Of a stretch of 64,000 nt of DNA, positions 4,669 to 59,259 are shown piece after piece. The first letter of the stretch is position 1; each line of letters starts with the position of its first letter. The DNA is taken from NCBI GenBank assembly GCA_963814525.1, contig CAWFDH010000005.1:88786-152785 (forward strand). Reading direction: 5' to 3'. The stretch is from an uncultured Actinomycetes bacterium. Its GTDB lineage: Bacteria > Actinomycetota > Thermoleophilia > Gaiellales > Gaiellaceae. The notes beneath the pieces are model-generated. The model was given only the letters and a program-made list of their open reading frames with translations, searched no databases and had not been told where the DNA came from. Position numbers and translations under genes: made by a program.

Positions 4669-5667
4669 GTGAGCGTGAAGGTTGGGATCAACGGCTTCGG
4701 CCGGATCGGGCGGAACTTCTTCCGCGCCGTCCGCGCGAGCGGGGCCGACGTCGACATCGTCGCGGTCAACGATCTCGGCGACGCGAAGACGATGGCGCAC
4801 CTCCTCAAGTACGACTCGGTGCTCGGTCCGCTGGGCGTCGACGTCGAGGCGCGCGAGGGCGCGATCGTCGTCGACGGCAAGGAGATGCGGCTGCTGAACG
4901 AGCGCGATCCGGCCAATCTTCCCTGGAAAGAGCTGGGTATCGACGTCGCGCTCGAGTCGACCGGCTTCTTCACCAAGCGCGACCAGGCGCAGCTCCATCT
5001 CGACTCGGGCGCGCAGAAGGTCGTCATCTCGGCGCCGGCAACGGATCCCGACGTCACGCTCGTGCTGGGCGTCAACGACGACGCCTACGACCGCGAGCAG
5101 CACTCGATCATCTCGAACGCCTCCTGCACGACCAACTGCCTCGGGCCGGTCGCGAAGATCCTGAACGACGCGTGGGGAATCGAGTCCGGATTCATGACGA
5201 CGATCCACGCCTATACGAACGACCAGCAAATCCTCGACCTGCCGCACTCAGACCTGCGGCGCGCGCGGGCGGCTGCGATCAACCTGATCCCGACCTCGAC
5301 CGGTGCGGCCAAGGCGATCGGGATCGTGATCCCCGAGCTGAACGGCCTGGTGGACGGCGTCTCGATCCGTGCTCCGGTCTCGGACGGCTCGCTCGTCGAC
5401 CTCACTGCCCACCTCGGCAGCGAGGTCACGGCAGACGAGGTGAACGCCAAGTTCCTCGAGCTCGCGGACAAGGGCGCGCTGAAGGGGATTCTGCGCTACT
5501 CGGACGAGCCGCTCGTCTCCACGGACATCGTCGGGAGCTCGTTCTCGTCCATCTTCGACTCGCAGCTGACGATGACGCGCGGCCACGAGGTCAAGGTGTT
5601 CGCCTGGTACGACAACGAGTGGGGCTACTCGTCCCGGCTCGTGGATCTCGTTCAGCGGCTCCTCTAA
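4669..5667 (+). CDS. gap: type I glyceraldehyde-3-phosphate dehydrogenase
   Basis: [17 protein letters not shown] Rossmann N-terminus and the catalytic [10 protein letters not shown] motif. GTG 4669 lies 6 nt after AGGAGG; the track ORF begins earlier, at 4621. Confidence 0.93.
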
Positions 5668-8631: not shown

Positions 8632-9347
8632 GTGCTGATCGCCGGGAACTGGAAGATGTTCAAGGGCCCGCCGACGCCGGGCAGTTCGCACACGCGCTGC
8701 GGGAACGGCTCGACGGGGTGACCGGAACCGACGTCGCCGTCTGTCCGCCCAAGGTGTCCCTCGCGCCGGTCGTCGAGGCGCTCGCCGGCTCCGAGATCAC
8801 CGTCTACGCGCAGAACGTCCACTGGGCCGACGAAGGCCCGTTCACCGGGGAGACCTCGCCGCCGATGCTGCTCGAGCTCGGCGTCGACGGCGCGGTCGTC
8901 GGCCACTCGGAGCGGCGCCAGTACTTCGGCGACACCGATACGTCCGTCGCACGGAGGGCCCGGCATGCGCTCGCAGCGGGGCTGAAGGTGATCGCCTGCG
9001 TCGGCGAGACCGAGGAGGAGCGGGAGGCCGACGAGACCGAGATCGTCCTGCGGCTTCAGGTCGAGGCGATCGGCGATGCGACGCAGGCGCACGAGAATCT
9101 CGTCCTGGCCTACGAGCCGGTCTGGGCGATCGGCACCGGCAAGACGGCGACCCCCGAGACAGCGCAGGAGGCGCACGCGTTCATCCGCTCGATCCTCGAC
9201 GTGCCCATCCTCTACGGCGGCTCGGTCAAGCCGGAGAACACCACCGAGCTCATGGGGCAGCCCGACGTGGACGGCGCGCTCGTCGGCGGGGCCTCGCTCG
9301 AAGTCGACTCGTTCGCAGCGATTTGCGAAGCGGCGGCGTCCCTCTAG
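8632..9347 (+). CDS. tpiA: triose-phosphate isomerase (one frameshift near 8665)
   Basis: GTG 8632 gives VLIAGNWKMFKGP. Homology then continues in the frame of track ORF 8718..9347 (AYEPVWAIGTGKTA, YGGSVKPEN). Confidence 0.88.
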
Positions 9348-10799
9348 TCGCGCTGGTCGTCCTCGACGGCTGGGGCTTGGCGCCGCCCGGGCCCGGCAAC
9401 GCCGTGGAGCAGGCCGCGACGCCGGTGTTCGACGACCTCTGGGCGCGCTATCCGCACACGACCCTCGAGGCGTCGGGCCACGCGGTCGGGCTTCCCGAGG
9501 GGCAGATGGGCAACTCCGAGGTCGGCCACCTGACGATCGGCTCGGGCCGGGTCGTCTACCAGGATCTCGTGCGCATCAACCGCGCGATCGAGGACGGCAG
9601 CTTCATGGAGAACGAGGCGCTCGTCGCGGCGTTCCGCCGGGCGAAGGAGCGCGGCGGCAACGTCCACCTGCTCGGGCTCGTCTCCTACGGCGGCGTCCAC
9701 TCGCACATCGACCACCTGCGCGCTCTGCTCGACCTCGCCTGGCGCGAGGGGATGGACGAGCGCACGTACGTCCACGCGTTCACCGACGGGCGGGACGTGT
9801 CGCCGACGTCCGCGCTGAAGGACATCGGCGAGCTGGTCGAGGAGCGGGCGCAGATCGCCACGGTCGTCGGCCGCTACTACGCCATGGACCGCGATCAGCG
9901 CTGGGACCGCACCGAGCTCGCGCTCGCGGCCATCACTGAAGCCGGGCCCAATGCGGAGGATCCGCTCGCCGCGATCGACGCGAGCTACGCCGCCGGGGTC
10001 ACCGACGAGTTCATCGAGCCGATCGTGCTCGCGACGCCGCGCCTCGGCCCGGACGACGCCGCGATCTTCTTCAACTTCCGCCCGGACCGGACGCGGCAGC
10101 TCTCGCAGAAGCTCCTCGAGCTGAAGACCGACCTGACGACGATGACGCGCTACCGCGAGGACTTTCCGTTCCCGGTCGCGTTCGACGAGCAGACCGTCTC
10201 CGAGACCATGGCCGAGGTGCTCGCCGAGCACGGCGCGCGCCAGCTCCACGTCGCCGAGACGGAGAAGTACGCGCACGTCACGTACTTCTTCAACGGCGGC
10301 GAGGAGAAGGAGTGGGAGGGAGAGACGCGCATCCTCGTGCCCGTCGCCGCGCGATGTCCCGACCTACGACCTGAAGCCGGAGATGTCCGCCGACGAGGTG
10401 GCCGACCGCTTCTGCGCCGAGATCGGGAACGGCTACCGGTTCGCGATCGTCAACTTCGCGAACCCGGACATGGTCGGCCACACGGGCTCGATCCCGGCCG
10501 CGGTGAAGGCGGTCGAGACCGTCGACGCGTGCCTCGCTCGCGTGGTCGCCGCGGTCCACGAGGCCGGCGGAGTCTGCCTCGTCACGGCCGACCACGGGAA
10601 CGCCGAGCAGCTCCTCGAGGCCGACGGCACGAGCCCGCATACCGCGCACACGCTCAATCCTGTGCCGCTCGTCACGACCGTCGAAGGAGGTGAACTTGCA
10701 ACAGGCGGCACGCTCGCAGACCTCGTCCCGACGGCTCTGGACCTGCTGAACCTCCCTCGGCCGGAGGAAATGTCCGGCAAATCCCTAATGATTCGCTAA
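9323..10799 (+). CDS. gpmI: 2,3-bisphosphoglycerate-independent phosphoglycerate mutase (one frameshift near 10337)
   Basis: LDGWGL, GNSEVGHLTIGSGR, SYGGVHSH and YAHVTYFFNGG are in track ORF 9323..10693. After ...ILVP the homology (DVPTYDLKPEMSADEV...NFANPDMVGHTG...ADHGNAE) continues in ORF 10383..10799. Confidence 0.88.
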
Positions 10800-14867: not shown

Positions 14868-14876
14868 GATCTCCTC

Positions 14877-16399
14877 GTGGATCGACGAAGGGACACGCCG
14901 CAGTCGAGCGGCTCGCCGCGGCGCTGAGCGAGGTCGCGGGCGTGCCGGTCGCGCTCGAGCGCCCGCGCGACGCCTCGCACGGCGACTACGCGACGAACGT
15001 CGCGCTGCAGCTCGCGCCCTCGCGCGGGATGAAGCCGATGGACCTGGCCGAGGAGCTCGCGGCCGCGGCCCGTGCGCTCCCGGGTGTCGCGCAGGCGACC
15101 GCGGCGCCGCCCGGCTTCTTGAACCTCGAGCTCGAACCCGCATGGTTCGGCGAGACGCTCGCCGAGATGCTCGCGGACGGCCGCGACTACGGCCGCGGCA
15201 CGCCGGATCCCAGACAGAAGATTCAGGTGGAGCTGGTCTCCGCCAACCCGACCGGTCCGATCACGGTCGCGTCTGCGCGAAACGCCGCCTACGGCGATGC
15301 GGTCGCGCGGCTCCTCGACTTCTCCGGCCACGAGGTCTCGCGCGAGTACTACGTGAACGACATCGGAGAGCAGATCGTCCGCTACCGGGCCTCGGTGGAC
15401 GCCCGCGCCCGCGGAGAGGAGCCGCCCGAGGACGGCTACCAGGGCGAGTACCTGAACGAGATCGCCGCGATCGAGGGCGATCCGGTCGAGGTCATGCTGG
15501 AGCGGATCGGCGAGACGCTCGAGCGCTTCCGCGTCCACATCGACAGCTGGGTGCGCCAGAGCGAGGTCGAGGTCTCGCTGGAGCAGACGCTGGCCGAGCT
15601 GCCGCTCTACGACGAGGAGGGCGCCAAGTGGCTCCCGACGACGAAGTGGGGCGACGACAAGGACCGCGTGGTCGTGCGCGCCGACGGCCGGCCGACCTAC
15701 TACGCGGCCGACCTCGCCTACATCCGGCACAAGTTCGCCCGCGGCTTCGAGCGGCTCATCTACGTGCTCGGCGCCGACCACCACGGCTACGTCGGACGCC
15801 TGCGCGCCGCCGCCGCGGCGTTCGGGCACGAGCCCGACGACGTCGAGGTGCTGATCTACCAGCTCGTCCATCTCAACGAGGGCGGCGAGGCGCGCAAGGT
15901 CTCGAAGCGGAGCGGCGACGTCGTCTTCCTGGACGAGTTCATGGACGAGGTCGGCGTGGACGCCGCGCGCTGGTTCCTCATTTCCCGCGGCTACGACCAG
16001 GCGATCGAGATCGACGTCGACCTCGCGCGCGACAAGACGGACAAGAACCCCGTGTACTACGTCCAGTACGCCCACGCCCGCATCGCCGGGATCCTTCGCA
16101 ACGCCGGCGACCGCGCGGCCTCGTCGGAGCCGGGCGAGCTCGCCCCGGAGGAGCGCGAGCTGATCAAGCGCCTCGCCGACTTTCCGCTGATCGCCGCCGA
16201 GGCGACGCACCGGCGCGGCCCGCACGCGATCCCGACCTACGCGATCCGGGTCGCGGACGACTTCCACCGCTTCTACCACGAGCACCGTGTGCTCGACTCC
16301 GACGCGGAGGCGTTCCGGCTCGGCCTGTGCCGCGCGACGCAGTCCGTGATCGCGCGCTGCCTCGACCTGATCGGGGTCGACGCGCCCGATCGGATGTAG
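14877..16399 (+). CDS. argS: arginine--tRNA ligase
   Basis: The latter part of track ORF 14399..16399 shows HGDYATNVAL, VSANPTGPITVASARN (HIGH-region equivalent), GADHHGY and KVSKRSG (KMSK-like), ending ...DAPDRM. The nearest start, GTG 14877, is out of frame by one, so the extreme 5' end is uncertain. Confidence 0.9.
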
Positions 16400-20619: not shown

Positions 20620-20692
20620 GCGGACGTAGCTCAGTTGGTAGAGCATCAGCTTCCCAAGCTGAGGGTCGTGGGTTCGAGCCCCATCGTCCGCT
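20620..20692 (+). tRNA. tRNA-Gly (anticodon CCC)
   Basis: A 73-nt cloverleaf folded by hand: acceptor GCGGACG/CGTCCGC, D-arm GCTC-AGTTGGTA-GAGC, anticodon stem TCAGC/GCTGA with loop TT-CCC-AA, and T-arm GTGGG-TTCGAGC-CCCAT. CCA is not encoded. Confidence 0.9.
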
Positions 20693-48327: not shown

Positions 48328-49497
48328 ATGGGAGTTGGACGCAGAAAACGCCTGATCTTTCTCGCGCTCCTTGCCGGAGCGCTCCTCGCGGCGCCCGGCG
48401 CCGTGGCGCAGAGCCTCGACGGGAAGATCAACGCGCTGCGAAACCAGATCGCGAGCGCGAAGGAGAAGGAGGGCGTCCTCTCCAGCGAGATCGCCACGGC
48501 CGGCGACGGGATCGTCGCGCTCGAGGGCGACATCGGCGAGCTCTCGACCGAGGTCGCGAACCTCGAGCGCGAGCTCGAGTCGCACCGCGACCGGCTGGCC
48601 CGCCTCGAGGCCAAGATCGAGTATCAGACACGCCACGTAAATCGGCTCGACCGCGATCACCGGATCGCGCAGGAGATGCTCGAGCGCCGGCTGGTCGCGC
48701 TCTACGAGTCGGACCAGATGGACACGATCGAGATCCTGCTGGGCGTCAGGAGCCTCGGCTCGCTCGTCGACTCGATCGAGTACTCGAACCAGATCGGCGC
48801 CCAGGACCGCGCAGTTGCCGCGCGACTCCGGACGCTCGAGGCGGAGATGCGCGCGGCCCGGCGCGAGACGGCGGCGACCCGCACGGAGGTCTCCGAGCAG
48901 ACCGCGGTGATCGCCGTCAAGACGGCCGCGGCGCAGAAGGCGCGGGACGATCTCGTCTCCCGCCAGAACGCGCTCGAGGCGGCGCGAAGCGAGAAGGCGG
49001 GCCTCCTGGCCGGGATCAAGTCGAAGCGGAAAGACCACGAGGAGGATCTCGACGCCATGCTCGCGGCCAGCGCCGCGCTCGCGGCGCAGATCCAGGCTGG
49101 GAGCTCCGGCGGCTCGTCCTCGGGCCCGCCGTCGGCCCACGGGTTCATCTGGCCGGTGTCCGGCCCGGTGACGAGCGGGTTCGGCCCGCGCTGGGGCCGG
49201 ATGCACGAGGGAATCGACATCGGCGCCGGGACCGGTACCGCGATCCATGCCGTCGCGGCCGGGACGGTCATCTACGCAGGCGTGATGGGCGGGTACGGGA
49301 ACATCGTCGTCGTCGACCACGGCGGCGGCGTCTCGACCGCGTACGCGCACATGTCGGCCATCTGGATCGGCGGCGGCACGGTGTCGCAGGGCGCGAGCCT
49401 CGGTGCGGTCGGCTGCACGGGCCATTGCTTCGGGTCGCACCTGCATTTCGAGGTGCGCGTGAACGGCTCGCCCGTGGATCCGCTCGGCTACCTGTAG
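48328..49497 (+). CDS. M23 family metallopeptidase with an N-terminal coiled coil (EnvC-like murein hydrolase)
   Basis: From ATG 48328: a signal peptide, a long heptad-rich region, then HEGIDI, VVVDHGGG and the GSHLHFEV zinc motifs. Confidence 0.85.
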   Translation: MGVGRRKRLIFLALLAGALLAAPGAVAQSLDGKINALRNQIASAKEKEGVLSSEIATAGDGIVALEGDIGELSTEVANLERELESHRDRLARLEAKIEYQTRHVNRLDRDHRIAQEMLERRLVALYESDQMDTIEILLGVRSLGSLVDSIEYSNQIGAQDRAVAARLRTLEAEMRAARRETAATRTEVSEQTAVIAVKTAAAQKARDDLVSRQNALEAARSEKAGLLAGIKSKRKDHEEDLDAMLAASAALAAQIQAGSSGGSSSGPPSAHGFIWPVSGPVTSGFGPRWGRMHEGIDIGAGTGTAIHAVAAGTVIYAGVMGGYGNIVVVDHGGGVSTAYAHMSAIWIGGGTVSQGASLGAVGCTGHCFGSHLHFEVRVNGSPVDPLGYL

Positions 49498-49544
49498 CCC
49501 GACGACGCATCGCGCAGCCGCTCGGGTCGTCCCTTCGCGCGGAG

Positions 49545-50104
49545 CTAGCGCGGCGCAGGACGTGGAGCCCGGGGAGGCCGCGGTAGCGCCCGTCGAGGTC
49601 GAAGCCGTAGCCCACGAAGAACTCGTCCGGCGCGGTGAAGCCGACGTAGCGGATCGGCAGGTCGTCCACGAGCCGCCGGTACGGCCGGTCGATGAGCGTG
49701 CAGACCGCGAGCGAGGCCGGATCGCGCAGCGCCAGCGCCTTGAGGATGTAGTTCAGCGAGAGCCCCGTGTCGACGACGTTCTCGACGACGACGACGTTGC
49801 GCTCCCTGATCGGCTCGTCCAGATCCTTGAGGAGCCGAACCGACGAGCCGTCACCGAACGGCGACGAGTAGCCGGCCACCGAGACGAAGTCGAGCGCGTG
49901 GGGGATCCGGGTCGCGCGCGAGAGGTCGCTGCCGAAGACGACCGCGCCGCGCAGGACGATGACGAGCAGCAGGTCGCGCCCGGCGTAGTCCGCCGCGATG
50001 GTCTTGCCGAGCTCGCCGACGCGCGCCGCGATCTGGTCGGCGTCCATGTAGACCTCGCCGAGCCGGTGCGGCCGAACGGGTTCGAACGCCGGATCGGCGC
50101 TCAT
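49545..50104 (-). CDS. hpt: hypoxanthine phosphoribosyltransferase (3' end uncertain)
   Basis: PRPP loop VVVVENVVDTGLSL. As assembled, the ORF reads on to 49268, antisense to the M23 gene. A TAG in an adjacent frame at 49545 would give a normal ~185-aa length, so a terminal indel is likely. Confidence 0.8.
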
Positions 50105-50116
50105 CGGGGGGAGTTC

Positions 50117-50509
50117 CTACGCGGCGTAATCGAGGCCGAACCTCTCGACGATCCGTTCGATGTCGCGCTTGTAGAAGAGCCTGACCTTCACGTCCGGGTA
50201 TCGCTCGCGGAGCTTGCGCATCTTGCGGTTCTTGCGGGTCACGAGGGACTGGCGCATGGTTGTGACCTCGATGTAGAGATTCTGCTCGGGCAGGTAGAAA
50301 TCCGGGCAGGCGGCCTCGATGACGCGGCCCTCGGAGTCCTCCTCGAGCGTGAACGAATGGGGTTCATAGGCCCAGGGGATGCGGTAGTAGTCGAGGAGCC
50401 GCGCGACCTCAAGTTCTGCCTGGTTGACGAAACGCGGTGGATCGACCCCGCAATATGCCTGGAAACCGAGGGTTTCTTCGGGCACGCAAAGGACGGTAGC
50501 AACCGGCAC
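50117..50509 (-). CDS. small PD-(D/E)XK-like (TnsA/Vsr-like nuclease fold) protein, function unknown
   Basis: ELEVARLLDYYRIPWAYEP...CPDFYLPEQNLYIEVT matches the E...PDF...(D/E)x(K/T) layout of restriction-endonuclease-like folds. GC content is visibly lower than in the neighbours. The TTG start given by the track (50560) would abut the divergent gene, so GTG 50509 is preferred. Confidence 0.45.
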   Translation of the reverse strand: MPVATVLCVPEETLGFQAYCGVDPPRFVNQAELEVARLLDYYRIPWAYEPHSFTLEEDSEGRVIEAACPDFYLPEQNLYIEVTTMRQSLVTRKNRKMRKLRERYPDVKVRLFYKRDIERIVERFGLDYAA

Positions 50510-50559
50510 GGACGTCCCCCACTTACGATGTAGACAGGCGTTCCGCCGACTCAGCCGCA

Positions 50560-51345
50560 ATGTTCCGAATCGCCCACATCTCCGACCTCCACTGCGGGTC
50601 GCCGCACTTCGTCGCGAACCTGCTCGACCGCGCGATCGTGGAGGTCAACGACCTGAAGCCCGACGTGGTCGTGTGCTCCGGTGACCTCACGACGTTCGGC
50701 TACAGGCCCGAGTACGCGGAGGCGGCGGAGTACCTCGCGAAGCTCGAGTGCGAGCGGCTCGTGGTCGTTCCCGGCAACCACGACTCGCGCAACGTCGGCT
50801 ACATCCACTTCGAGGAGTTCTTCGGCTCGCGCAGCTCGGTCGTGCACGTGAACGGGACGACCGTCGTCGCGGTCGACTCGTCCGAGCCCGACCTCGACCA
50901 CGGGCAGATCGGCCGCGGCCGCTACGAGTGGATCGCCGAGCAGTTCTCCGAGCCGGCCGACTTCCGCGTGTTCGTCCTCCACCACCATCTGCTGCCCGTC
51001 CCGGGAACGGGGCGCGAGCGCAACATCGTCCACGACGCGGGCGACACGCTCGAGGTGCTCCAGAGCGCCGAGGTGAACCTGGTGCTCTCCGGCCACAAGC
51101 ACGTGCCGTACGCCTGGAAGCTCGAGAACATCTTCGTCGTGAACGCCGGCACCGTCTCGACCCTGCGCCTTCGCGGCCGCGGGCGCCCCTGTTACAACCT
51201 GATCGAGGTGGACGAGCGCCACGTCGACGTCTGGCGCAAGTACCCGTTCCACGGACAGGAGCGGATCATCCAGTTCTCGATCGACACGCTCGAGTTCGAG
51301 AAGTACACAGGCCGGATCGACGCGGAGATCAAGTCCCGGCCATGA
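50560..51345 (+). CDS. metallophosphoesterase (calcineurin-like, archaeal-type); first gene of the cDPG operon
   Basis: Intact 261-aa ORF with SDLHCG, SGDLTTFG, PGNHD, VLHHHL and SGHKH. Confidence 0.8.
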   Translation: MFRIAHISDLHCGSPHFVANLLDRAIVEVNDLKPDVVVCSGDLTTFGYRPEYAEAAEYLAKLECERLVVVPGNHDSRNVGYIHFEEFFGSRSSVVHVNGTTVVAVDSSEPDLDHGQIGRGRYEWIAEQFSEPADFRVFVLHHHLLPVPGTGRERNIVHDAGDTLEVLQSAEVNLVLSGHKHVPYAWKLENIFVVNAGTVSTLRLRGRGRPCYNLIEVDERHVDVWRKYPFHGQERIIQFSIDTLEFEKYTGRIDAEIKSRP

Positions 51346-52616
51346 AGGCGCTGGCGCTGATCGACGGGGAGCACTACGCGGACGTGGTCACGGACGCGTT
51401 CGCCGAGCTTCCGTACGAGATCGTGGGAGCGGTCGTCCTGGGCGGGACCGAGAAGCTGAAGGGCGGGGAGGACTACGGCGTGCCGCTCTACGCGACGCTC
51501 GCCGAGGGGCTGGAGCGCGCGGGGGCCGAGACGGTCGTCGACCTCTCGGACGAGCCGGTCGTGAGCCCGCGGGACCGCATGGCGATCGCGAGCGAGGTGC
51601 TCGCCGCCGGGCTCACGTACGTCGGTGCCGACTTTCGCTTCGAGCCCGTGTCGTTCGCACCGTTCCCGCTGCCCGCACTGGCCGTGATCGGGAGCGGCAA
51701 GCGCGTCGGCAAGACCGCCGTCGCCGGCCACGTCGCACGGCTGCTCTCGGAGTCGCGCTCGGTCGTCGTCGTCGCCATGGGCCGCGGCGGTCCGGCCGAG
51801 CCGATCGTCGCCGCCGAGCCTCCGGACGTGAACGACCTCCTCGAGCTCGCCCGCTCGGGCTCCCACGCGGCGTCGGACTACCTCGAGGACGCTGCCCTGG
51901 CACGCGTTCCCACGGTCGGCTGCCGGCGCGCCGGCGGCGGTCTCGCGGGCGCTCCGTTCGTCTCCAACGTGGAGGAGGGCGCCCGCCTCGCGGCCGAGCT
52001 GAATCCCGACCTGGTGATCTTCGAAGGAAGCGGCGCGGCGCTGCCGCCGATCGACGTCGCCGCGCGCGTGCTCGTCGCCGGCGGCGCGCAGGATCCCGAG
52101 ATCGTGGCCGGCTACCTCGGCGCGTACCGGATCCGCGTCTCCGACCTCGTCGTCCTCACCGGCTGCGAGGAGCCGCTCGTGACCGCCGAGCAGGTCGAGC
52201 GCCTGCGCGAGGCGATCGCCGCGGTGAAGGACGTGCCGGTGATCGCGACCGCGTTCCGCGTCGCCCCCGTGGAGCCGATCGAGGGGAAGCGCGTCGCGCT
52301 CTTCACGACCGCGCCCGAGGCGGTGCACGACGCGCTGCGCGAGGGCCTCGAGCGCGACCACGGCGCCGAGGTGCTGGCGGTCTCCGGAAACCTGTCGAAC
52401 CGCAGCGCGCTGCGCGAGGACCTCGAGCGCGCCGAGGTGCGCTCCGCCGACGCCTACGTCGTCGAGATCAAGGCCGCGGCGATCGACGTCGTCGCCGAGA
52501 CGGCGGCCGAGCGTGGCGTCGAGACCGTCTTCGCCGACAACGCGGTCGTCCCGCTCCCCGGCGAGCGGAACCTCGACGAGGCGCTCGAGCTCCTGGTCCC
52601 CGAGGTGGTGCGATGA
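51342..52616 (+). CDS. cpgS: cyclic 2,3-diphosphoglycerate synthetase-like protein
   Basis: From ATG 51342 (ATGA overlap): MKALALIDGEHYADVV..., P-loop-like GSGKRVGKTAV, ...VIFEGSGAALPP... From memory this matches the archaeal cDPG synthetase family. 424 aa, intact. Confidence 0.78.
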   Translation: MKALALIDGEHYADVVTDAFAELPYEIVGAVVLGGTEKLKGGEDYGVPLYATLAEGLERAGAETVVDLSDEPVVSPRDRMAIASEVLAAGLTYVGADFRFEPVSFAPFPLPALAVIGSGKRVGKTAVAGHVARLLSESRSVVVVAMGRGGPAEPIVAAEPPDVNDLLELARSGSHAASDYLEDAALARVPTVGCRRAGGGLAGAPFVSNVEEGARLAAELNPDLVIFEGSGAALPPIDVAARVLVAGGAQDPEIVAGYLGAYRIRVSDLVVLTGCEEPLVTAEQVERLREAIAAVKDVPVIATAFRVAPVEPIEGKRVALFTTAPEAVHDALREGLERDHGAEVLAVSGNLSNRSALREDLERAEVRSADAYVVEIKAAAIDVVAETAAERGVETVFADNAVVPLPGERNLDEALELLVPEVVR

Positions 52617-53537
52617 ACGATCGCCGGCCCCCCGAGTCGCCGGTCCTCTCGGCCGACACGCTCCTGCCGTTCTCGAAGGGCCTGATGGCGCGCGCGCTGA
52701 TGGGAACCGGGATCGCGCCCGAGCGCGCGTACGAGCTGGCGCGGTTCGTCGAGGTGGGCCTGAGCGTCGACCATCCCGACCTCGTCGCGCCCTCCGATTC
52801 CGTCTACGACGTCGCCGCCGCGGTTCTCGCCGAGCACGAGGACGAGGGCGCGGTCCGCCGCCTGCGCCGCTACCAGCGCCTCCAGGAGGTCGAGTCGCCG
52901 CTCGTCCTGCTCGTCGGCGGCGCGACCGGAACCGGGAAGTCGACGATCACGACCGAGGTCGCCCACCGGCTCGGGATCAACCGCGTCACGTCGACCGACT
53001 TCGTGCGCCAGACGATGCGGGCGTTCTTCTCCGAGGCGTTCATGCCGTCGATCCACTACTCGAGCTTCGAGGCCGGCGCCGCGGTCGTCAGCCGCGACGA
53101 CGATCGGGACGCGGCCAACATCCGCGGCTTCCTCGAGCAGACGCGCAACGTGCTCGTCGGCGTACGCGCGAGCGTGGAGCGAGCGCTGACCGAGGGCCAC
53201 TCGATGGCGATCGAGGGCGTCCATCTCGTGCCCGGCCTCGTGCCGAACGCAGATCGAGGGCGCGATCGTCTGCCAGTGCGTGATCGCCATCCCGGACGAG
53301 GAGGCGCACGCGCGCCACTTCTATGTCCGCGAGCTCGACTCCGACGGCCTTCGCCCGGTGCAGAAGTACCTCGACGCGCTCCCGGAGATCCGCCGGATCC
53401 AGGATCTGCTCATCGAGCGCGCCGTCGAAGCCGGCGTGCCCGTGATCGACAACGGTGACCGCGAGCAGGCGGTCGACGCGGTGCTCCAGCTCGTCCTCGA
53501 CACGTTCGAGCGCGTGAGCCCGCCGGTGCGAGCATGA
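52613..53537 (+). CDS. 2-phosphoglycerate kinase-like protein (one frameshift near 53245)
   Basis: N-terminal LLPFSKGLMARAL domain, Walker A GGATGTGKST, and TSTDFVRQTMR in ORF 52613..53458. The C-terminus is in ORF 53280..53537. It has ATGA overlaps on both sides. Confidence 0.76.
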
Positions 53538-54490
53538 CCACCTTCCGTTGCGAGGCGTTCGCGGGCGTGACCGAGCGCGCCGCGGTCGCCGCGGGCCGCT
53601 GGCTCGGGCGCGGCGACGTCGCGGGCGCGGAGGAAGCCGCGGCACTCGCCATGCGCCAGGCGCTCGACACGCTGCCCATCGAAGGCCGCGTGATGGTCGG
53701 CACCGAGTCCGACGACCACCCGCTCAGCATCGGGACGGTGGTGGGCGCGGGCGGCGACTCCGTCGATCTCGCGGTCGATCCGGTCGAGGGCGCAACCGTG
53801 GTCGCGCGCGGCGACGTGGGGGCGATGTCGATGCTGGCCGTCGGCGACGCGGGCTCGTTCCCGCGGCTCCCGAACATGTACATGCGGAAGATGGCCGTCG
53901 GCCCGACCGCGCGCGGTCGGATCGACCTCTCGCTGCCGGTCGGCGACAACGTGCGCGCGATCGCCGAGGCGTTCGGCCGCAACGTCGAGGACATCACGAC
54001 GATCGTGCTCGACCGCCCGCGCCACGAGGATCTCGTCGAGGAGCTCCGCGAGGCCGGCGCGCGGATCAAGCTGATTCCGGACGGCGACGTGACCGCGACG
54101 ATCAGCGCCGCGATCCGCGGGACGAACGACCACTTCGCGATCGGCATCGGCGGTGCGCGGCAGGCCGTCATCGCCGCCGCGGCGCTGCGCTGCCTCGGCG
54201 GCGAGCTCCAGGCGCAGCTCTGGCCGGTGACGCGCACCGAGATCACGCAGGCCGCGGAGTTCGGCATCGACGACGTCGAGCGCGTCTTCACGACCGACGA
54301 GCTCGCGCCCGGCGAGGTCGTGGTCGCCGCGACCGGCGTCTCGAACTCGGATCTCCTGCGCGGCGTGCGCTACTTCGCCGACAGCGCCCGGACGCAGTCG
54401 GTCGTCATGTGCACGCGCCACAACTGGGTCAAGTTCATCGACGGCATCCACTTCTTCGCCCGCGAGCGGCGCGAAGAGGTGCGTCTCTAG
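53534..54490 (+). CDS. divergent GlpX-family (class II FBPase-like) phosphatase paralog
   Basis: Intact 318-aa ORF. It retains GRGD, DPVEGA and DGDV, but has VGTESDDHPL and GIGGARQAV where glpX at 18194 has [11 protein letters not shown] and GIGGTPEGV. Confidence 0.8.
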   Translation: MTTFRCEAFAGVTERAAVAAGRWLGRGDVAGAEEAAALAMRQALDTLPIEGRVMVGTESDDHPLSIGTVVGAGGDSVDLAVDPVEGATVVARGDVGAMSMLAVGDAGSFPRLPNMYMRKMAVGPTARGRIDLSLPVGDNVRAIAEAFGRNVEDITTIVLDRPRHEDLVEELREAGARIKLIPDGDVTATISAAIRGTNDHFAIGIGGARQAVIAAAALRCLGGELQAQLWPVTRTEITQAAEFGIDDVERVFTTDELAPGEVVVAATGVSNSDLLRGVRYFADSARTQSVVMCTRHNWVKFIDGIHFFARERREEVRL

Positions 54491-54501
54491 ACTTCCAGGG
54501 A

Positions 54502-54801
54502 ATGCCTACGCGGGAACAGATCATCGACGCGCTGCGGGTCGTCGAAGACCCGGAGCTCGGCATGGACATCGTCGAGCTCGGCCTCCTCTACGACGTCGAG
54601 GTCGACGAGGGCAAGGTCAAGGCGATCTACTCGCTGACCTCCATGGGCTGCCCCGTCGGCCCGATGATCGAGCAGGAGATCCAGGAGACGGTCGCGTCCA
54701 TGGACGGCGTCGACGAGGCGATCGCCGAGCTCACGTGGGACCCGCCGTGGTCTCCGGAGAAGATGTCGGACGACGCGAAGTTCATCCTCGGCTTCGGGTA
54801 G
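54502..54801 (+). CDS. DUF59/SufT-type metal-sulfur cluster assembly factor
   Basis: 99 aa from ATG 54502: VEDPELGMDIVELGLLYDV...TSMGCPVGPMI... Confidence 0.8.
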   Translation: MPTREQIIDALRVVEDPELGMDIVELGLLYDVEVDEGKVKAIYSLTSMGCPVGPMIEQEIQETVASMDGVDEAIAELTWDPPWSPEKMSDDAKFILGFG

Positions 54802-54862
54802 CAACGGGAACCTTTCCGCCGGACGCGGTGTAGACGCGGAAACGATCACCAGGAGGCCCGCC

Positions 54863-55444
54863 ATGCGCCCCGCCGTTCTTCTCACCGTCGTCGTCACCGC
54901 ACTCGTCCTCGCCGCCGAGGCTTCGGCCGGTTGCTTCGCGACCGCGGGCCTCACCGCGCCTCCGGCCACCGTCGGCCCGGGCGACACCTGGAACGCGCTG
55001 ATCACCGTGAAGCAGCACGGAACACGCCCGATTCCCGACGCCAAGCCGACGCTCACGATCCAGGGCGAGAACGGAGCGACCAAGACGTTCGCCGCGAAGC
55101 CGACGGACACGGTCGGCGTGTACGCCGCTTCGGTCGTGTTCCCCTCCGCCGGGCAGTGGAGCTACGTGGTGGACGACGGGTTCGTGGACTCAGGCGGCGG
55201 CCAGTCCTGGGACTGCTCGACGACGCATACGTTCGCTGCGGTCACGATCGGCGGAACCGGCTCGTCCGGTCCGGCTGCCGGCGATCCCGCCGCCGCTCCG
55301 TCCGTGGAGCCGGCGTCGGCAACCGACGACGGCGGCGTCGCGAGCCTCGCGATCGTCCTGGTCGTCGCAGCCGTGGTAGCGCTCGCGGCCGCACTGGGCG
55401 TCGCCCTGGCGCGCCGTTCGGCCCGCCGCCACGCTCGGGCCTAG
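54863..55444 (+). CDS. secreted Ig-like-domain protein with a C-terminal TM anchor, function unknown
   Basis: Signal peptide (VVVTALVLAAEASA), a beta-rich domain of about 110 aa, a Pro/Ala linker, and a TM helix followed by a basic tail (ARRSARRHARA). Confidence 0.5.
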   Translation: MRPAVLLTVVVTALVLAAEASAGCFATAGLTAPPATVGPGDTWNALITVKQHGTRPIPDAKPTLTIQGENGATKTFAAKPTDTVGVYAASVVFPSAGQWSYVVDDGFVDSGGGQSWDCSTTHTFAAVTIGGTGSSGPAAGDPAAAPSVEPASATDDGGVASLAIVLVVAAVVALAAALGVALARRSARRHARA

Positions 55445-56419
55445 ATCGCGATCGAGGACGACCTTGCCGAGCTGCTCGCCCGACTCGAGGCGCGCGTGAG
55501 CAGCTCGGACGTCGTCCAGCGGGAACACCTGATCCACGATCGGCTTCGCGCGACCTGAGGCCACGAGATCCAGCATCGCCGCGAAGTCCTCGCGCGTGCC
55601 CATCGTCGAGCCGAGGATCGAGAGCTGCTTCCAGAAGATCCGGTGGAGCTGCGCCGGCGGATTCGGGCCCGACGTGGCGCCGCACACGACGATGCGGCCG
55701 CCCGTGCGCGCCGCCTGGAGGGAGCCCTTCCAGGTCGCTTCGCCGACGTGCTCGATCACCACGTCGACGCCGGTGCCGTCCGTCAGCTCGCGGACGAGCC
55801 CGATCACGTCGCCGTCGGTTCTCACCACCGCGTCGGCGCCCAGCTCGGTCGCGCGCTCGAGCTTCGCGTCGTCCGTGGACGTCGCGAGCACCTTGCCTCC
55901 CAGCGCCTTCGCCATGGCCAGCGCGGCCGTCCCGACGCCCGAGCCGACGCCCCACACGAGCACCCATTCGCCCTCGCGCAGGCCCGCGCGCGTGGCCAGC
56001 ATCCGGTAGGCGGTCATGAACACGAGCGGGAACGCGGCCGCCTCCTCGAACGAGAGCCCGTCCGGGATCGGGTGCACGTACTCGGCCGGGATCGCGATCA
56101 GCTCCGCGTGCGTGCCGTCCATGTGCTCGCCCACGATCTGCGACCCGTCCGCGAGGCCGGGATTGATCAGCACGCGGTCGCCGACCTCGAATCCGGAGAC
56201 CTCCGAGCCGAGCGCCGCGACGACCCCTGAGCCGTCCGCACCGAGGATCCGAGGCTTCGGGACGGAGGGCAGTCCCTGCCGGATCCAGACGTCCAGGTGG
56301 TTCAGCGACGCGGCGCGAAGACCGATCAGCACCTCGTCGGGAGCGGGCTCCGGGTCGGGAACGTCCTCGACGACGAGGACCTCGGGACCGCCGTCCTCGT
56401 GAATCCGGACGGCCTTCAT
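55441..56419 (-). CDS. zinc-type alcohol dehydrogenase / quinone oxidoreductase (MDR family); 3' end probably shifted
   Basis: From ATG 56419: LNHLDVW, GADGSGVV, GVGSGVGTAA. As assembled, the ORF reads on to 55190. A 1-nt correction ends it at ...GKVVL.IAI-stop (55441). Confidence 0.82.
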
Positions 56420-56451: not shown

Positions 56452-57465
56452 ATGCCGAGAATACTCACGCAGGCCGAACTGACGCGGCTGGCGGAATCGC
56501 TGGGGATCGACGCGATCGGCGCCGCACCGGCGGAGCCCTACGACGAGACCGAGCAGCACATCCGCGACCGGCGTCAGCGCGGGCTCTTCGCAGACATGCG
56601 GTTCACGATGTCGAAACCCGAGGTCTCGTGCCATCCCGAGCGGCTCTTTCCCGAGGCGCGCACCGTCGTGTCCGCCGCGCTCGGCTACTACGCGCCCGCC
56701 GCCGATCCGCGGCCCGGAGAGGGAAAGCTCCCGCGCTACACCTGGAGCCACGCCTACGCGGCGCTGCGCGAGCGGCTCGAGGAGCTCGGCCGCGAGCTCG
56801 GCGGCAAGCACCGGGTGCTCGTGGACGAGAACCAGCACGTCGATCGCGAGGGCGCGGCGCGGGCAGGTGTCGGGTTCTACGGCAAGAACACGCTTCTCAT
56901 CACACGTCGCTACGGATCATGGGTCGTTCTCGGCACGCTCGTGACCGAAACGGAAATCGAATCGAGCTCCCCGCTCGACCTCAATTGCGGGTCGTGCCGG
57001 CTCTGTATCGACGCCTGCCCGACGGACGCCCTCGACGAGCCCGGCGTGCTCGACTCGACGCTCTGCCTCTCCTACTGGACGCAGGCGCCCGGCTCGATCC
57101 CCGAGGACTTCCGCGCCGCGCTCGGCGACCAGGTGTACGGCTGCGACATCTGCCAGGACGTCTGCCCGTGGAACCGGGGGATCGAGAAGCGCCGCTCGGA
57201 CGCGAGCGTGCCCGAGGCCGCCGAGCCCGTCGTCTCGCTCGCCGACTGGCTCGAGGCGCCCGACGACGAGCTCCGCGAGCGCTACGACCGCCTCTACTTC
57301 CCGAAGAACGACCCGCGCTACCTGCGCCGCAACGCGCTCGTCGCCGCGGGGAACTCCGGCGATTCCCGGCTCGTGCCGCTCGTGCGGCGCTACGCCGACG
57401 CGGAGGACGAGCTCCTGCGCGAGCACGCGGCCTGGGCCGCAGAGCGACTGGCGGGGCCGGCATGA
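56452..57465 (+). CDS. queG: epoxyqueuosine reductase
   Basis: From ATG 56452: two 4Fe-4S motifs (CGSCRLCIDACP, CDICQDVCPWN) and a C-terminal HEAT-like repeat (RNALVAAGNSGD). Confidence 0.88.
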   Translation: MPRILTQAELTRLAESLGIDAIGAAPAEPYDETEQHIRDRRQRGLFADMRFTMSKPEVSCHPERLFPEARTVVSAALGYYAPAADPRPGEGKLPRYTWSHAYAALRERLEELGRELGGKHRVLVDENQHVDREGAARAGVGFYGKNTLLITRRYGSWVVLGTLVTETEIESSSPLDLNCGSCRLCIDACPTDALDEPGVLDSTLCLSYWTQAPGSIPEDFRAALGDQVYGCDICQDVCPWNRGIEKRRSDASVPEAAEPVVSLADWLEAPDDELRERYDRLYFPKNDPRYLRRNALVAAGNSGDSRLVPLVRRYADAEDELLREHAAWAAERLAGPA

Positions 57466-59259
57466 ACGAGCGCCAGCGCGCACAGGAGATGTGGATCGCG
57501 TACGCGCGGCTCCTCGCCGTCATCTTCGCCGCGATCCAGGTCCTGATCGTCCCGTACGACGAGCCCGGCCGCAGCCTCAACTCGGGCGTGGCCATCACGG
57601 CGATCCTCGCCGTCGGCGGCGTCATCTTCCTGTTCCTCGCGCGCCGGCGATCTGAGCACCGCGGACGCGAACGCTTCTCGGGATGGTCGCGCTGATCTTC
57701 GACACGGCGATCATCTACGCGTACGTCTTCACGCACGCGTTCTCGCCGGGCACGTCCGCGAGCCGGCTGCTCGTCCTCGCCGTGATCGAGGCCGCGGTGC
57801 GCTACGGCGTCGCCGGCGCCGTCTGGATGACCGTCGCCAACATCCCGCTGCTCGCCGCCGTCGAGTACGACCGCGCGGGCTCGGTGAACGGGTTCGAGAT
57901 CCGCAACGTGACGCTGACGCTCGGGATCCAGCTGATCGCCGGGCCTCGTCGTCGGCGGCCTCACCCGGCAGCTCCACGGCGAGTCCCAGCGGGCGGAGGC
58001 CCGCGCGGCCGAGGCGGAACTGCTTGCGCGACGAGATCGGACGTCACGCCGACCGGCTGGAGGTCGCGAACCGCTGCGCCCGCGCGCTGGCGTCGTCGCT
58101 CGACATGAAGGAGAGCTTCCAGACCTTCGCGCGCGAGCTGAAGACGTCGTTCGCGTACGACCGGATCGCGCTCGTCCTCGCCGACCACGGCCGGGCCACG
58201 GTGGTCGCCGACGACGGCGTCGGCGCCGACGACGGCCGCAGTCCCTGGACGATGCCGCTCGACGACAGCGCGCTCGGCGAGGTCGTCCGCACCGGCCAGA
58301 CGCACGTGCGCGCCGACCTCAAGGAAGGCGCGCGCTACGCGGAGGAGGAGCAGCTCGCCGCGATCGGCATGCGGTCGCGCGTGATCGCGCCGCTCGCCAT
58401 CGCCGGGAAGCCGCTCGGCGTCATCTCCGTCTCGCGCCGCGAGGCCGACTCGTTCACGCGCGACGACATCGACCTGCTCACGCTGCTCGGCCGCCAGCTC
58501 GCGACCGCCGTCGAGAACATCCGCGCCTTCGAGGCCGAGCGCGCCGCCGCCGAGGAGCTGCGCCGGCTCTCCGCCCTGCGCGCCGACTTCGTCTCGCTCG
58601 TGACGCACGAGCTGCGCGGGCCGATGGCTTCGGTCGTCGGCTGCGCGGCCACGCTTGCGCCAGCGCTGGCGCACGCTGAACGAGGGCCAGCGCGAGTCGT
58701 TCCTCGCGCTGATCGAGGAGGAGACCTCGAGGCTCGCAGCGCTCGTCGGGCGACGTGCTCGACACGTCGCGGCTCGAGGCCGGCACGTTCACCTACGCGT
58801 TCACGGACGTGGACGTCGAGGCGCTCGTCCGCGAGGTCGCCGCCGTGGTCGACCTCGGGCACGAGGAGGTCGCGATCCGCACGCACGTCCCCGGCCCGCT
58901 GCCGGCGGTGCGCGGCGACCGCGAGCGGATCCGCCAGGTCGTCATGAACCTGCTCACGAACGCGGTCAAGTACACGGTCGTGGGCGACGAGGTCGAGGTG
59001 CTCGCGCGCGTGCGACAACGGCTCCGTCGCCGTCAGCGTGAGCGACCACGGGCCCGGGATCTCCGCCGAGGAGCAGCGTGTGATCTTCGAGAAGTTCGGC
59101 CGCGCCGCGAACGCCGGCTCGAGCTCCACCCCCGGCGCCGGGCTCGGGCTCTTCATCGCCCGCTCGATCACCGAGGCGCACGGCGGCTCGCTCGAGGTGG
59201 AGTCGCAGCCCGGTCAGGGCGCGACGTTCACCGTCCGCCTGCCCGTCAGCGCTTCGTAA
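57462..59259 (+). pseudogene. membrane GAF-domain sensor histidine kinase, at least 6 frame changes; no adjacent response regulator
   Basis: TM region (ORFs 56628..57695 tail and 57683..58108). GAF domain and H-box FVSLVTHELRGPM (ORF 58024..58947). N-box (NLLTNAVKYT, ORF 58755..59363). G-boxes (DHGPGIS, GAGLGLFIA, ORF 59038..59259). ATGA overlap with queG. Confidence 0.75.

What the first reader, a model, noticed from the sequence alone, without database searches (positions are those of the whole stretch)
50560..54490. Archaeal-type cyclic 2,3-diphosphoglycerate (cDPG) pathway inside a translationally coupled four-gene bacterial operon
**Seen in the sequence.** Four same-strand genes are joined by ATGA start/stop overlaps at 51342/51345, 52613/52616 and 53534/53537:
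- a calcineurin-like metallophosphoesterase
- a protein matching the cDPG synthetase family (MKALALIDGEHY..., GSGKRVGKTAV)
- a protein matching 2-phosphoglycerate kinase (LLPFSKGLMARAL, GGATGTGKST, TSTDFVRQTMR)
- a divergent GlpX-family phosphatase

**Established knowledge.** 2PGK converts 2-PG to 2,3-DPG, and cDPGS converts 2,3-DPG to cDPG. Together they make the thermoprotective solute cDPG in hyperthermophilic methanogens (Methanothermus, Methanopyrus).

**Inference.** To my knowledge this pathway has not been studied functionally in bacteria, and the genes for cDPG turnover are not defined. The two co-operonic phosphohydrolases are obvious candidates for cDPG ring opening or 2,3-DPG dephosphorylation, which would make this a complete synthesis/turnover module. 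The same window also encodes gpmI, which supplies 2-PG.
Basis: partly seen in the sequence, partly recalled or inferred. Interest (0 to 1): 0.8.

Follow-up and report, generated by a model that had tools for sequence, protein, structure and literature searches.

The report
Bacterial cyclic-diphosphoglycerate operon with conserved phosphoesterase
A soil actinobacterium carries the two enzymes that make cyclic 2,3-diphosphoglycerate, a solute the literature assigns only to heat-loving methanogens, in a tightly packed operon with a conserved phosphoesterase that may be the undiscovered breakdown enzyme; one gene looks broken here, most likely by a sequencing error.

Summary
The four same-strand genes and the three ATGA overlaps are real. 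Gene 2 is a convincing cDPG synthetase: E 2.6e-93 and 43% identity to the crystallised M. fervidus enzyme, with every named substrate, Mg and ATP residue conserved. Gene 3 is a 2-phosphoglycerate-kinase family member. Relatives lack that base. Such frameshifts occur only in long-read MAGs, and two other window genes are also broken, so an assembly error is most likely.

Gene 4 is an ordinary class II FBPase that passes the glpX equivalog cut-off; it is not divergent. In other lineages a fructose-6-phosphate aldolase takes its place.

Gene 1, the metallophosphoesterase (MPE), is the interesting partner. MPE-cDPGS-2PGK is conserved in all 80 sampled Gaiellales/Thermoleophilia genomes, in four more distant actinobacterial-type loci, and in Cloacimonadota. 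It is not linked in Methanobacteriales or Bipolaricaulota.

Best reading: a bacterial cDPG synthesis and turnover module wired to gluconeogenesis, with the MPE as candidate cDPG or 2,3-DPG hydrolase.

The synthetase is already auto-annotated in many bacterial MAGs. I found no paper on it, and the MPE link appears undescribed. Interest is moderately high.

The parts
50560..51345 (+). Metallophosphoesterase (261 aa), first gene of the operon. It is a conserved core partner of cDPGS-2PGK and the candidate cDPG or 2,3-DPG hydrolase.
   Evidence: - Pfam PF00149 at 78 bits against a cut-off of 21.5.
- All MPE metal motifs are readable: D9xH11, G41D42, G72N73H74D75, H141-143, G178H179xH181.
- No NCBIfam equivalog cut-off is met; CpdA scores 45 bits against 225.
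- AF2 model has pLDDT 87.4. The nearest folds are Rv0805 and GpdQ at no more than 25% identity.
- Adjacent to cDPGS in all 80 Gaiellales loci, in L089, L090, L091 and L093, and as a tandem form in Cloacimonadota L092.
51342..52616 (+). Cyclic 2,3-diphosphoglycerate synthetase homologue (424 aa).
   Evidence: - PDB 8oru/8ork (M. fervidus cDPGS): E 2.6e-93 over query residues 2-416.
- 43% identity to the M. fervidus enzyme.
- E37, K38, K120, R121, K124, T125, D179, E276, F305, T323, E375 and K377 match the ligand-binding residues listed in PMC10690619.
- Relatives at 96% identity carry PF27272 CpgS_N.
52613..53537 (+). 2-phosphoglycerate kinase family gene, interrupted by a +1 frameshift as sequenced.
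   Evidence: - The two frames match NF003259 at profile positions 12-207 and 214-294.
- With base 53251 removed, the 307-aa product scores 257.9 bits over positions 12-294 of 306. This is the best family but lies below the 343-bit cut-off.
- Intact 308-aa and 302-aa orthologues exist in L002 and L003.
53251..53251 (+). Extra A that breaks the 2PGK reading frame; probably an assembly indel.
   Evidence: - Absent from L001, L002 and L003.
- L001 has a different 1-nt insertion 18 nt upstream.
- Split genes occur in 6 of 39 long-read loci and 0 of 41 other loci.
- The window's histidine kinase and gpmI genes are also frame-broken.
53534..54490 (+). Class II fructose-1,6-bisphosphatase (GlpX, 318 aa), last gene of the overlapping set.
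   Evidence: - TIGR00330 at 281.1 bits against a cut-off of 259.3.
- PF03320 at 349 bits over profile positions 7-307 of 307.
- M. tuberculosis FBPase II structure 6ayv: E 4.8e-71.
- 67-83% identical across Gaiellales.
- Replaced by a TAL_FSA gene in L089, L090 and L093.
9323..10799 (+). gpmI (cofactor-independent phosphoglycerate mutase), supplier of 2-PG. It lies 40 kb from the operon, is not linked to it, and is itself split over two frames.
   Evidence: - The frame 9323-10693 matches iPGM_N and the N-terminal part of Metalloenzyme.
- The frame 10383-10799 matches TIGR01307 positions 367-504 of 504.

Best explanation
The locus is a bacterial cyclic 2,3-diphosphoglycerate (cDPG) module of deep-branching Actinomycetota (Thermoleophilia/Gaiellales).

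**Supported by homology**
- 2PGK phosphorylates 2-phosphoglycerate to 2,3-DPG.
- cDPGS uses ATP to close the intramolecular pyrophosphate ring and give cDPG.

**Inferred**
- The translationally coupled metallophosphoesterase, which is the most conserved and most constantly linked partner, opens the ring (cDPG to 2,3-DPG) and/or dephosphorylates 2,3-DPG.
- That would return carbon and phosphate to 2-PG/3-PG. Synthesis and breakdown would then be co-expressed and controlled after translation. By analogy from my own knowledge, this resembles the ppk-ppx operon for polyphosphate.
- GlpX is the cell's ordinary gluconeogenic FBPase. It is co-transcribed because cDPG branches off gluconeogenesis, not because it acts on cDPG.
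- In a probably mesophilic soil or sediment bacterium the product would more likely serve as a phosphate, carbon or energy reserve, or as an anionic osmolyte or protectant, than as a thermoprotectant.
- The break in 2PGK in this window is most likely a long-read assembly error, not a dead pathway.
For: **cDPGS**
- E 2.6e-93 to the crystallised enzyme, with all listed 2,3-DPG, Mg and ATP ligands conserved.

**2PGK**
- The best NCBIfam family over the full length is 2PGK. Paralogue models score far lower: 127 and 79 bits against 258.

**Linkage**
- The order MPE-cDPGS-2PGK-GlpX is found in every one of 80 species genomes with enough flank, down to 57% cDPGS identity.
- Overlapping junctions are conserved.
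- MPE-cDPGS-2PGK recurs in L089, L090, L091 and L093. There the MPE is 55-65% identical, while cDPGS is 44-46% and 2PGK 37-46%.
- It also recurs in Cloacimonadota L092, with an MPE of the same subfamily at 34% identity that shares the HHH...GRERN...AGD signature.

**MPE**
- The catalytic motifs are intact.
- Ten Arg/Lys residues are invariant across five sequences of 54-80% identity, and nine of them stay invariant in the 30-sequence set (R121 nearly invariant). This suits a polyanionic substrate.

**Biochemical precedent**
- A cDPG hydrolase activity exists in M. thermautotrophicus. cDPG synthesis diverts from gluconeogenesis and its hydrolysis feeds back into it (PMC1224877).

**Frameshift as artefact**.
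Against: - No metabolite or enzyme data exist for any bacterium.
- The 2PGK score is below the NCBIfam equivalog cut-off (258 against 343 bits).
- 2PGK-like proteins have other roles elsewhere. Rice Lpa1, for example, acts in phytate synthesis (papers listed).
- A distant paralogue of cDPGS, ArcE, is an arginine synthetase (PMC11032458).
- Nothing ties the MPE to cDPG chemically. Its nearest solved relatives are phosphodiesterases (Rv0805, GpdQ) at no more than 25% identity.
- The hydrolase activity described in methanogens was membrane-bound (PMC1224877). This MPE shows no N-terminal signal or membrane-like segment (my reading of the sequence).
- MPE is not linked to cDPGS in Methanobacteriales or Bipolaricaulota.
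- Co-expressing a synthetase and its hydrolase risks a futile cycle.
- The frameshift could be real, because I could not see reads.
Confidence: 0.6

Rival explanations
1. Synthesis-only module with an unrelated neighbour. cDPGS and 2PGK make cDPG, but the MPE is a general phosphodiesterase (for example a cNMP or glycerophosphodiester hydrolase) that is merely co-transcribed and has no role in cDPG metabolism.
For: - Pipelines name it CpdA, Icc or metallophosphoesterase.
- The nearest structures are Rv0805 and GpdQ.
- Archaeal and Bipolaricaulota cDPGS loci have no MPE.
Against: - The CpdA equivalog score is far below its cut-off, 45 bits against 225.
- Linkage persists across about 55% cDPGS divergence, in two phyla, and in different genomic neighbourhoods, while the fourth gene changes.
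- The MPE-to-cDPGS junction overlaps in 73 of 84 loci.
Confidence: 0.2
2. The pathway is dead in this organism. The 2PGK frameshift is a genuine mutation, so 2,3-DPG and hence cDPG are not made.
For: - The frame is broken in the sequence as given.
- The 96%-identical relative L001 also has a broken 2PGK.
Against: - The two lesions are different single-base insertions 18 nt apart.
- Both flanking frame pieces remain 98-99% identical to the L001 protein, with no extra decay.
- Frameshifts hit all four operon genes, but only in long-read MAGs: 6 of 39 against 0 of 41, Fisher one-sided about 0.011 by my arithmetic.
- The window also has a histidine kinase cut into four frame pieces and a split gpmI.
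Confidence: 0.12
3. GlpX is a diverged phosphatase that acts on 2,3-DPG or cDPG, so the operon holds two dedicated turnover enzymes.
For: - It is translationally coupled to 2PGK.
- The position is conserved in Gaiellales.
- GlpX-family enzymes act on sugar bisphosphates.
Against: - It passes the glpX equivalog cut-off and aligns end to end with FBPase II structures.
- In L089, L090 and L093 the same slot holds a fructose-6-phosphate aldolase, which is not a phosphatase. In L091 the slot is empty.
- This points to a link with the fructose-phosphate node, not to 2,3-DPG hydrolysis.
Confidence: 0.08
4. Same folds, different chemistry. The cDPGS-like and 2PGK-like proteins act on other substrates, as ArcE (arginine synthetase) and plant Lpa1 do, and no cDPG is formed.
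For: - ArcE is a distant homologue of cDPGS with a wholly different reaction (PMC11032458).
- 2PGK scores below the equivalog cut-off.
- The literature reports cDPG only from methanogens (PMC10690619).
Against: - Identity to the real cDPGS is 43%, with every 2,3-DPG-contacting residue kept. ArcE similarity to cDPGS is described as low.
- The pairing with a 2PGK-family gene is what the pathway needs.
- In Bipolaricaulota cDPGS overlaps iPGM, the maker of 2-PG.
Confidence: 0.07

Closest known systems
cDPG pathway of Methanothermus fervidus (2PGK + cDPGS; structures 8ORK and 8ORU)
   Same: - The same two enzyme families are present.
- cDPGS is 43% identical, with the P-loop GxGKRxGKT and all named 2,3-DPG, Mg and ATP ligands conserved.
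- 2PGK is the best-matching family over its full length.
   Different: - The host is bacterial and probably mesophilic.
- The two genes are adjacent and translationally coupled, whereas in Methanobacteriales cDPGS is not next to 2PGK.
- An MPE and an FBPase belong to the same operon.
- 2PGK falls below the archaeal-trained equivalog cut-off.
cDPG hydrolase activity of Methanothermobacter thermautotrophicus (Sastry et al. 1992, as summarised in PMC1224877)
   Same: It is the reaction proposed here for the MPE: opening cDPG to 2,3-DPG, with a role in carbon and phosphate storage.
   Different: - The archaeal activity was membrane-bound and, to my knowledge, has no assigned gene.
- This MPE looks soluble.
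- No MPE is linked to cDPGS in the archaeal loci I read.
Class III phosphodiesterase / GpdQ branch of the metallophosphoesterases (Rv0805, GpdQ)
   Same: It shares the fold and the dinuclear-metal motifs, and these are the best structural and sequence matches.
   Different: - Identity is only 18-25%.
- No equivalog cut-off is met.
- The family has its own strongly conserved signature (PGNHDxRNVGY, LHHHLxPxPGTGRERN, GHKHVP, LRLRG) with many invariant basic residues.
ArcE arginine synthetase (TK2200, PMC11032458)
   Same: It is a distant homologue of cDPGS with an ATP-dependent P-loop fold, and it is widespread in bacteria.
   Different: - Its similarity to cDPGS is described as low.
- The window protein keeps the 2,3-DPG-binding residues.
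- The window protein sits with 2PGK, not with arcB or arcC.
ppk-ppx operon of E. coli (analogy from my own knowledge, not tested here)
   Same: The synthesising and hydrolysing enzymes of a phosphoanhydride store are co-transcribed, and balance is set after translation.
   Different: The proteins are unrelated, and the store is a polymer, not a small cyclic pyrophosphate.

Membership tests
[quoted passage not shown] | Full-length similarity to the biochemically and structurally characterised M. fervidus enzyme, including its unique N-terminal domain | tested here: met
   E 2.6e-93, query 2-416 against chain 5-445 of 8oru. 43% identity over 414 aligned positions. A 96%-identical relative carries PF27272 CpgS_N. 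The local Pfam and NCBIfam copies have no cDPGS model.
[quoted passage not shown] | Walker A GxGKRxGKT plus the 2,3-DPG, Mg and ATP ligands E45, K46, K145, R146, K149, T150, D208, E305, T353, E404 and K406 | tested here: met
   All are conserved in the window protein and in 9 relatives (E276 is Asp in one relative). The residue list comes from PMC10690619 section 8. The paper's 'P335' maps to a conserved Phe.
[quoted passage not shown] | Distinct from the ArcE arginine synthetase paralogue | tested here: inconclusive
   No ArcE sequence was available for direct comparison. The indirect evidence is conserved 2,3-DPG ligands, 2PGK linkage, and the statement that ArcE similarity to cDPGS is 'low'.
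[quoted passage not shown] | Catalyses 2,3-DPG + ATP to cDPG + ADP + Pi | not testable with these tools
   Needs an enzyme assay or metabolite detection.
2-phosphoglycerate kinase (NCBIfam NF003259 / COG2074) | Score at or above the curated equivalog cut-off (343 bits) | tested here: not met
   The repaired protein scores 257.9 bits over profile positions 12-294 of 306. Orthologues in L089, L092 and L093 score 308-317 bits, also below the cut-off.
2-phosphoglycerate kinase (NCBIfam NF003259 / COG2074) | 2PGK is the best-matching family over the full length, ahead of the paralogue models; P-loop present | tested here: met
   258 bits against 127 bits (PRK12338) and 79 bits (mevalonate-3-phosphate 5-kinase). 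GGATGTGKST is present.
2-phosphoglycerate kinase (NCBIfam NF003259 / COG2074) | Intact open reading frame | tested here: not met
   A +1 frameshift at 53251 in the window. The gene is intact in L002, L003 and most relatives.
Class II fructose-1,6-bisphosphatase (GlpX, TIGR00330) | Score above the equivalog cut-off and end-to-end alignment to solved FBPase II structures | tested here: met
   281.1 bits against 259.3. PF03320 at 349 bits. 6ayv E 4.8e-71 over residues 11-309.
Calcineurin-like metallophosphoesterase superfamily (PF00149) | Pfam gathering score and the five metal-binding motifs | tested here: met
   78.2 bits against 21.5. DxH, GD, GNHD, H and GHxH are all present and invariant in the family alignments.
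3',5'-cyclic-nucleotide phosphodiesterase CpdA/Icc (the name pipelines give the MPE) | NCBIfam NF008359 equivalog cut-off (225 bits) | tested here: not met
   45 bits. Identity to Rv0805 is about 24-25%.

The most novel reading that the evidence does not exclude
The 261-aa metallophosphoesterase founds a dedicated cDPG (cyclic pyrophosphate) hydrolase family. This would be the breakdown enzyme whose gene, to my knowledge, has never been identified since the activity was described in 1992. With 2PGK and cDPGS it would form a regulated synthesis and turnover cycle. cDPG would then be a phosphate, energy or carbon buffer in Gaiellales and other deep-branching Actinomycetota, which would overturn the view that cDPG is confined to hyperthermophilic methanogens.
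Probability: 0.35. Interest if true: 0.78.

Novelty: new variant of a known kind. Interest (0 to 1): 0.6.

Why it matters
- The papers I read treat cDPG as a thermoprotectant exclusive to hyperthermophilic methanogens (PMC10690619).
- Here the complete biosynthetic pair is conserved, under tight operon constraint, in at least 582 GTDB species genomes. The best 80 are nearly all labelled Gaiellales, Gaiellaceae, Thermoleophilia or unclassified Actinomycetes/Actinomycetota. It also occurs in other bacterial phyla.
- If cDPG is really made, it would be an unrecognised organic pyrophosphate pool in common soil bacteria. That bears on phosphorus storage, on stress tolerance, and on biotechnological sourcing of the extremolyte from enzymes that work at moderate temperature.
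- The conserved MPE gives a concrete, cheaply testable candidate for the missing cDPG-degrading enzyme.
- The finding also shows that single-base frameshifts in long-read MAGs can mimic pathway loss.

Tried and rejected
- **Programmed +1 frameshift in 2PGK:** rejected. The extra base is absent from L001, L002 and L003, and intact genes are the rule.
- **GATC-adjacent basecalling error as the specific cause:** dropped. GATC is about four times over-represented in the window (702 against 173 expected), so adjacency means little.
- **Regulatory elements:** the promoter and terminator scan of 49400-55600 gave nothing above shuffles. Rfam over the whole window gave only one tRNA.
- **Finding the window's own contig:** a 100%-identical MPE (P0450, on a 258-kb contig) was not on record for look-up.
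- **Bipolaricaulota 304-aa neighbour (L087 9321-10235) as a 2PGK:** no family hit and no tblastn hit.
- **Recent transfer from methanogens:** a rough NJ tree of 20 cDPGS sequences is star-like. The Gaiellales clade is as far from other bacteria (41-48% identity) as from archaea (39-44%). The tree has no support values, so I draw no direction of transfer.
- **Literature searches:** searches on 'cpgS' and on taxon names returned mostly noise, and commas in '2,3-' cannot be searched.
- **Structure search for the MPE:** it gave only generic MPE neighbours and does not fix the substrate.

Full report
**1. What is in the sequence**

- Four + strand genes occupy 50560-54490.
- Their junctions are ATGA overlaps at 51342-51345, 52613-52616 and 53534-53537.
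- The window is about 70% G+C throughout, with no compositional break at the locus.
- One thing was missed: the third gene is not a single ORF.
  - The frame opened at 52613 degenerates after ...VHLVPGLVPNA and stops at 53458.
  - The genuine C-terminus (...IEGAIVCQCVIAIPDEE...PPVRA) is in the next frame and ends at 53537.
  - The 2PGK model NF003259 matches profile positions 12-207 in the first frame and 214-294 in the second.
  - Alignment with three relatives pins the lesion to one extra A at 53251.

**2. Is the frameshift real?**

- The 96%-identical relative L001 also has a broken 2PGK, but from a different extra base 18 nt upstream (CCC[G]GGCC). L002 (91%) and L003 (70%) are intact.
- Among the 80 loci from the genome scan, frame-split operon genes occur in 6 of 39 loci from the MFD 'bin' assemblies.
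  - I take these to be long-read assemblies from their 'contig_N' record names and from my own knowledge of that project.
  - None of the 41 other assemblies has a split gene.
  - The splits hit all four genes, not 2PGK in particular.
  - My arithmetic gives a one-sided Fisher p of about 0.011.
- Within this window, the histidine-kinase gene starting at 57462 is cut into four frame pieces that each remain 89-96% identical to the L001 protein.
- gpmI is also split over two frames.
- The simplest reading is consensus indel error, not pseudogenisation. I put a real lesion at about 12%. I could not inspect reads, and the look-up of the window's own contig failed.

**3. Identity of the four proteins**

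*cDPGS*
- E 2.6e-93 to the M. fervidus enzyme of 8ORU/8ORK over residues 2-416.
- 43% identity.
- The residues the structure paper names for 2,3-DPG, Mg and nucleotide binding are all conserved in the window protein and in nine relatives, one of which has Asp at the E305 position.
- The local Pfam and NCBIfam copies have no cDPGS model. Close relatives carry the newer PF27272.

*2PGK*
- With base 53251 removed, the 307-aa product aligns over the full length of NF003259 at 257.9 bits. This is far ahead of the paralogue models but below the 343-bit equivalog cut-off.
- Bacterial orthologues elsewhere score 308-317 bits.
- It is therefore a diverged member of the 2PGK family, with function inferred.

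*GlpX*
- It passes the glpX equivalog cut-off and matches FBPase II structures end to end.
- 'Divergent' is not justified.

*MPE*
- It is a bona fide calcineurin-like phosphoesterase with all metal motifs.
- It belongs to no curated equivalog. CpdA scores 45 bits against a cut-off of 225.
- A confident AF2 model (pLDDT 87.4) is closest to Rv0805 and GpdQ at 18-25% identity.
- Pipelines call it CpdA, Icc or metallophosphoesterase.

**4. Comparative genomics**

- At least 582 GTDB species genomes encode a relative of this cDPGS.
- The best 80 are nearly all labelled Gaiellales, Gaiellaceae, Thermoleophilia or unclassified Actinomycetes/Actinomycetota MAGs; one (L068) is labelled Pseudomonadota. 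The closest is 'uncultured Thermoleophilia bacterium'.
- Every locus with enough flank has MPE-cDPGS-2PGK-GlpX in that order, down to 57% cDPGS identity.
- MPE (69-81%) and GlpX (67-83%) are more conserved than cDPGS (57-73%) and 2PGK (51-73%).
- Overlapping junctions are conserved.
- An exhaustive profile-free search finds 1108 50%-identity clusters in the wider family, 274 of them at E<=1e-30.
- Named members come from Bipolaricaulota, Cloacimonadota, Actinomycetota, an Asgard archaeon and Thermococcus.

Contexts of distant members:

| Locus | Gene order |
|---|---|
| L089, L090, L093 | MPE-cDPGS-2PGK-fructose-6-phosphate aldolase. In L093 the module sits between thrB and rho-rpmE-prfA, an actinobacterial arrangement. 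L090 starts inside the MPE gene at the contig end. |
| L091 | MPE-cDPGS-2PGK, no fourth gene, followed by rho |
| L092 (Cloacimonadota) | 5'-nucleotidase-type MPE, cDPGS, 2PGK, CBS protein, tandem MPE |
| L087 (Bipolaricaulota) | cDPGS overlapping iPGM; no MPE |
| Methanobacteriales | No linkage to 2PGK, MPE or GlpX |

- In L092 the first domain of the tandem MPE is 34% identical to the window MPE and keeps its signature. The second domain has lost the metal motifs.
- The constant core is therefore MPE + cDPGS + 2PGK, in two bacterial phyla. The fourth gene varies but always touches the fructose-phosphate node.

**5. Mechanism**

- Supported by homology only: 2-PG is converted to 2,3-DPG by 2PGK, and 2,3-DPG to cDPG by cDPGS.
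- Inferred from linkage, from the intact catalytic site and from the conserved basic residues (ten Arg/Lys invariant in the five-sequence alignment, nine of them still invariant across 30 sequences): the MPE hydrolyses cDPG and/or 2,3-DPG.
- This fits older biochemistry. cDPG synthesis branches off gluconeogenesis. A hydrolase inhibited by K+ and Pi exists in M. thermautotrophicus, and hydrolysis returns carbon and phosphate to gluconeogenesis (PMC1224877).
- A co-transcribed FBPase or F6P aldolase also fits that wiring.
- The closest relatives are MFD-named metagenome MAGs, and mesophilic Methanobacterium and Methanobrevibacter also carry cDPGS. A storage or osmotic role is therefore more plausible than thermoprotection.

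**6. Rivals**

- *MPE as a bystander phosphodiesterase (about 0.2).* Hard to square with linkage that survives changes of phylum and neighbourhood.
- *Real pseudogene (about 0.12).* See section 2.
- *GlpX as a 2,3-DPG phosphatase (about 0.08).* Contradicted by its canonical scores and by its replacement with an aldolase.
- *Different chemistry, as in ArcE or Lpa1 (about 0.07).* Contradicted by the conserved 2,3-DPG ligands and the pairing of the two enzymes. No ArcE sequence was available for a direct test.

**7. Novelty**

- Automated pipelines already label these bacterial proteins cDPGS, so the bare homology is not new.
- None of the 33 papers that mention 'diphosphoglycerate synth...' treats a bacterial cDPGS.
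- The field's stated view is that cDPG is exclusive to hyperthermophilic methanogens (PMC10690619).
- I found no mention of the conserved, translationally coupled MPE partner.
- I file it as a new variant of a known pathway. It offers a testable candidate for an enzyme whose gene is, to my knowledge, unknown.
- Interest is 0.6.

Noticed in passing
window 57462-58630: The GAF/HisKA histidine-kinase gene is cut into four frame pieces. Uncompensated single-base differences from both L001 and L002 lie near 57651/57659, 57944 and 58024. Each piece is still 89-96% identical to the L001 protein.
   Followed up: partly
window 9323-10799: gpmI (iPGM) is split. The N-terminal and middle part is in one frame (9323-10693). 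The C-terminal 138 aa is in the next frame (10383-10799), with the shift between about 10294 and 10350.
   Followed up: partly
window 14399-16399: One ORF joins a Peptidase_M48-like N-terminal stretch (residues 5-110) to an arginyl-tRNA synthetase. This may be another frame error or an over-extended ORF.
   Followed up: no
window 54501-54801: A DUF59/FeS_assembly_P (SufT-like) gene starts 10 nt after the glpX stop. The same neighbour follows glpX in L001 and L002, while in L003 a STAS gene lies between them. It does not look like part of the module.
   Followed up: partly
L092 3260-9232 (Cloacimonadota, GCA_018334695.1): cDPGS-2PGK is flanked by a 5'-nucleotidase-type MPE (542 aa), a CBS-domain protein, and a 499-aa tandem MPE whose second domain has lost the metal-binding motifs (a likely pseudo-enzyme or regulatory domain).
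   Followed up: partly
L087 2120-8908 (Bipolaricaulota): cDPGS overlaps iPGM by 8 nt and follows a three-gene ABC transporter. There is no MPE, and the 304-aa downstream protein matches no family.
   Followed up: partly
L084, L085, L086 5159-7987 (Methanothermobacter, Methanobacterium paludis): In Methanobacteriales, cDPGS is preceded by a UPF0058 gene and followed by a small RimB-like (PF05618, weak) gene in all three loci. This may be a conserved archaeal partner.
   Followed up: no
L068 (JBLNEO010000141.1): A MAG labelled Pseudomonadota carries the Gaiellales-type four-gene operon at 60-71% identity. This is probably a mis-binned or mislabelled contig.
   Followed up: no
window, whole: GATC occurs 702 times against about 173 expected from base composition. 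The only Rfam hit is a tRNA at 20620-20692. GAPDH lies at 4621-5667.
   Followed up: no
PDB 9sxb: A third, 436-aa 'cyclic 2,3-diphosphoglycerate synthetase' structure from another organism matches the window protein almost as well as the M. fervidus enzyme (E 8.8e-87). I did not determine its source.
   Followed up: no
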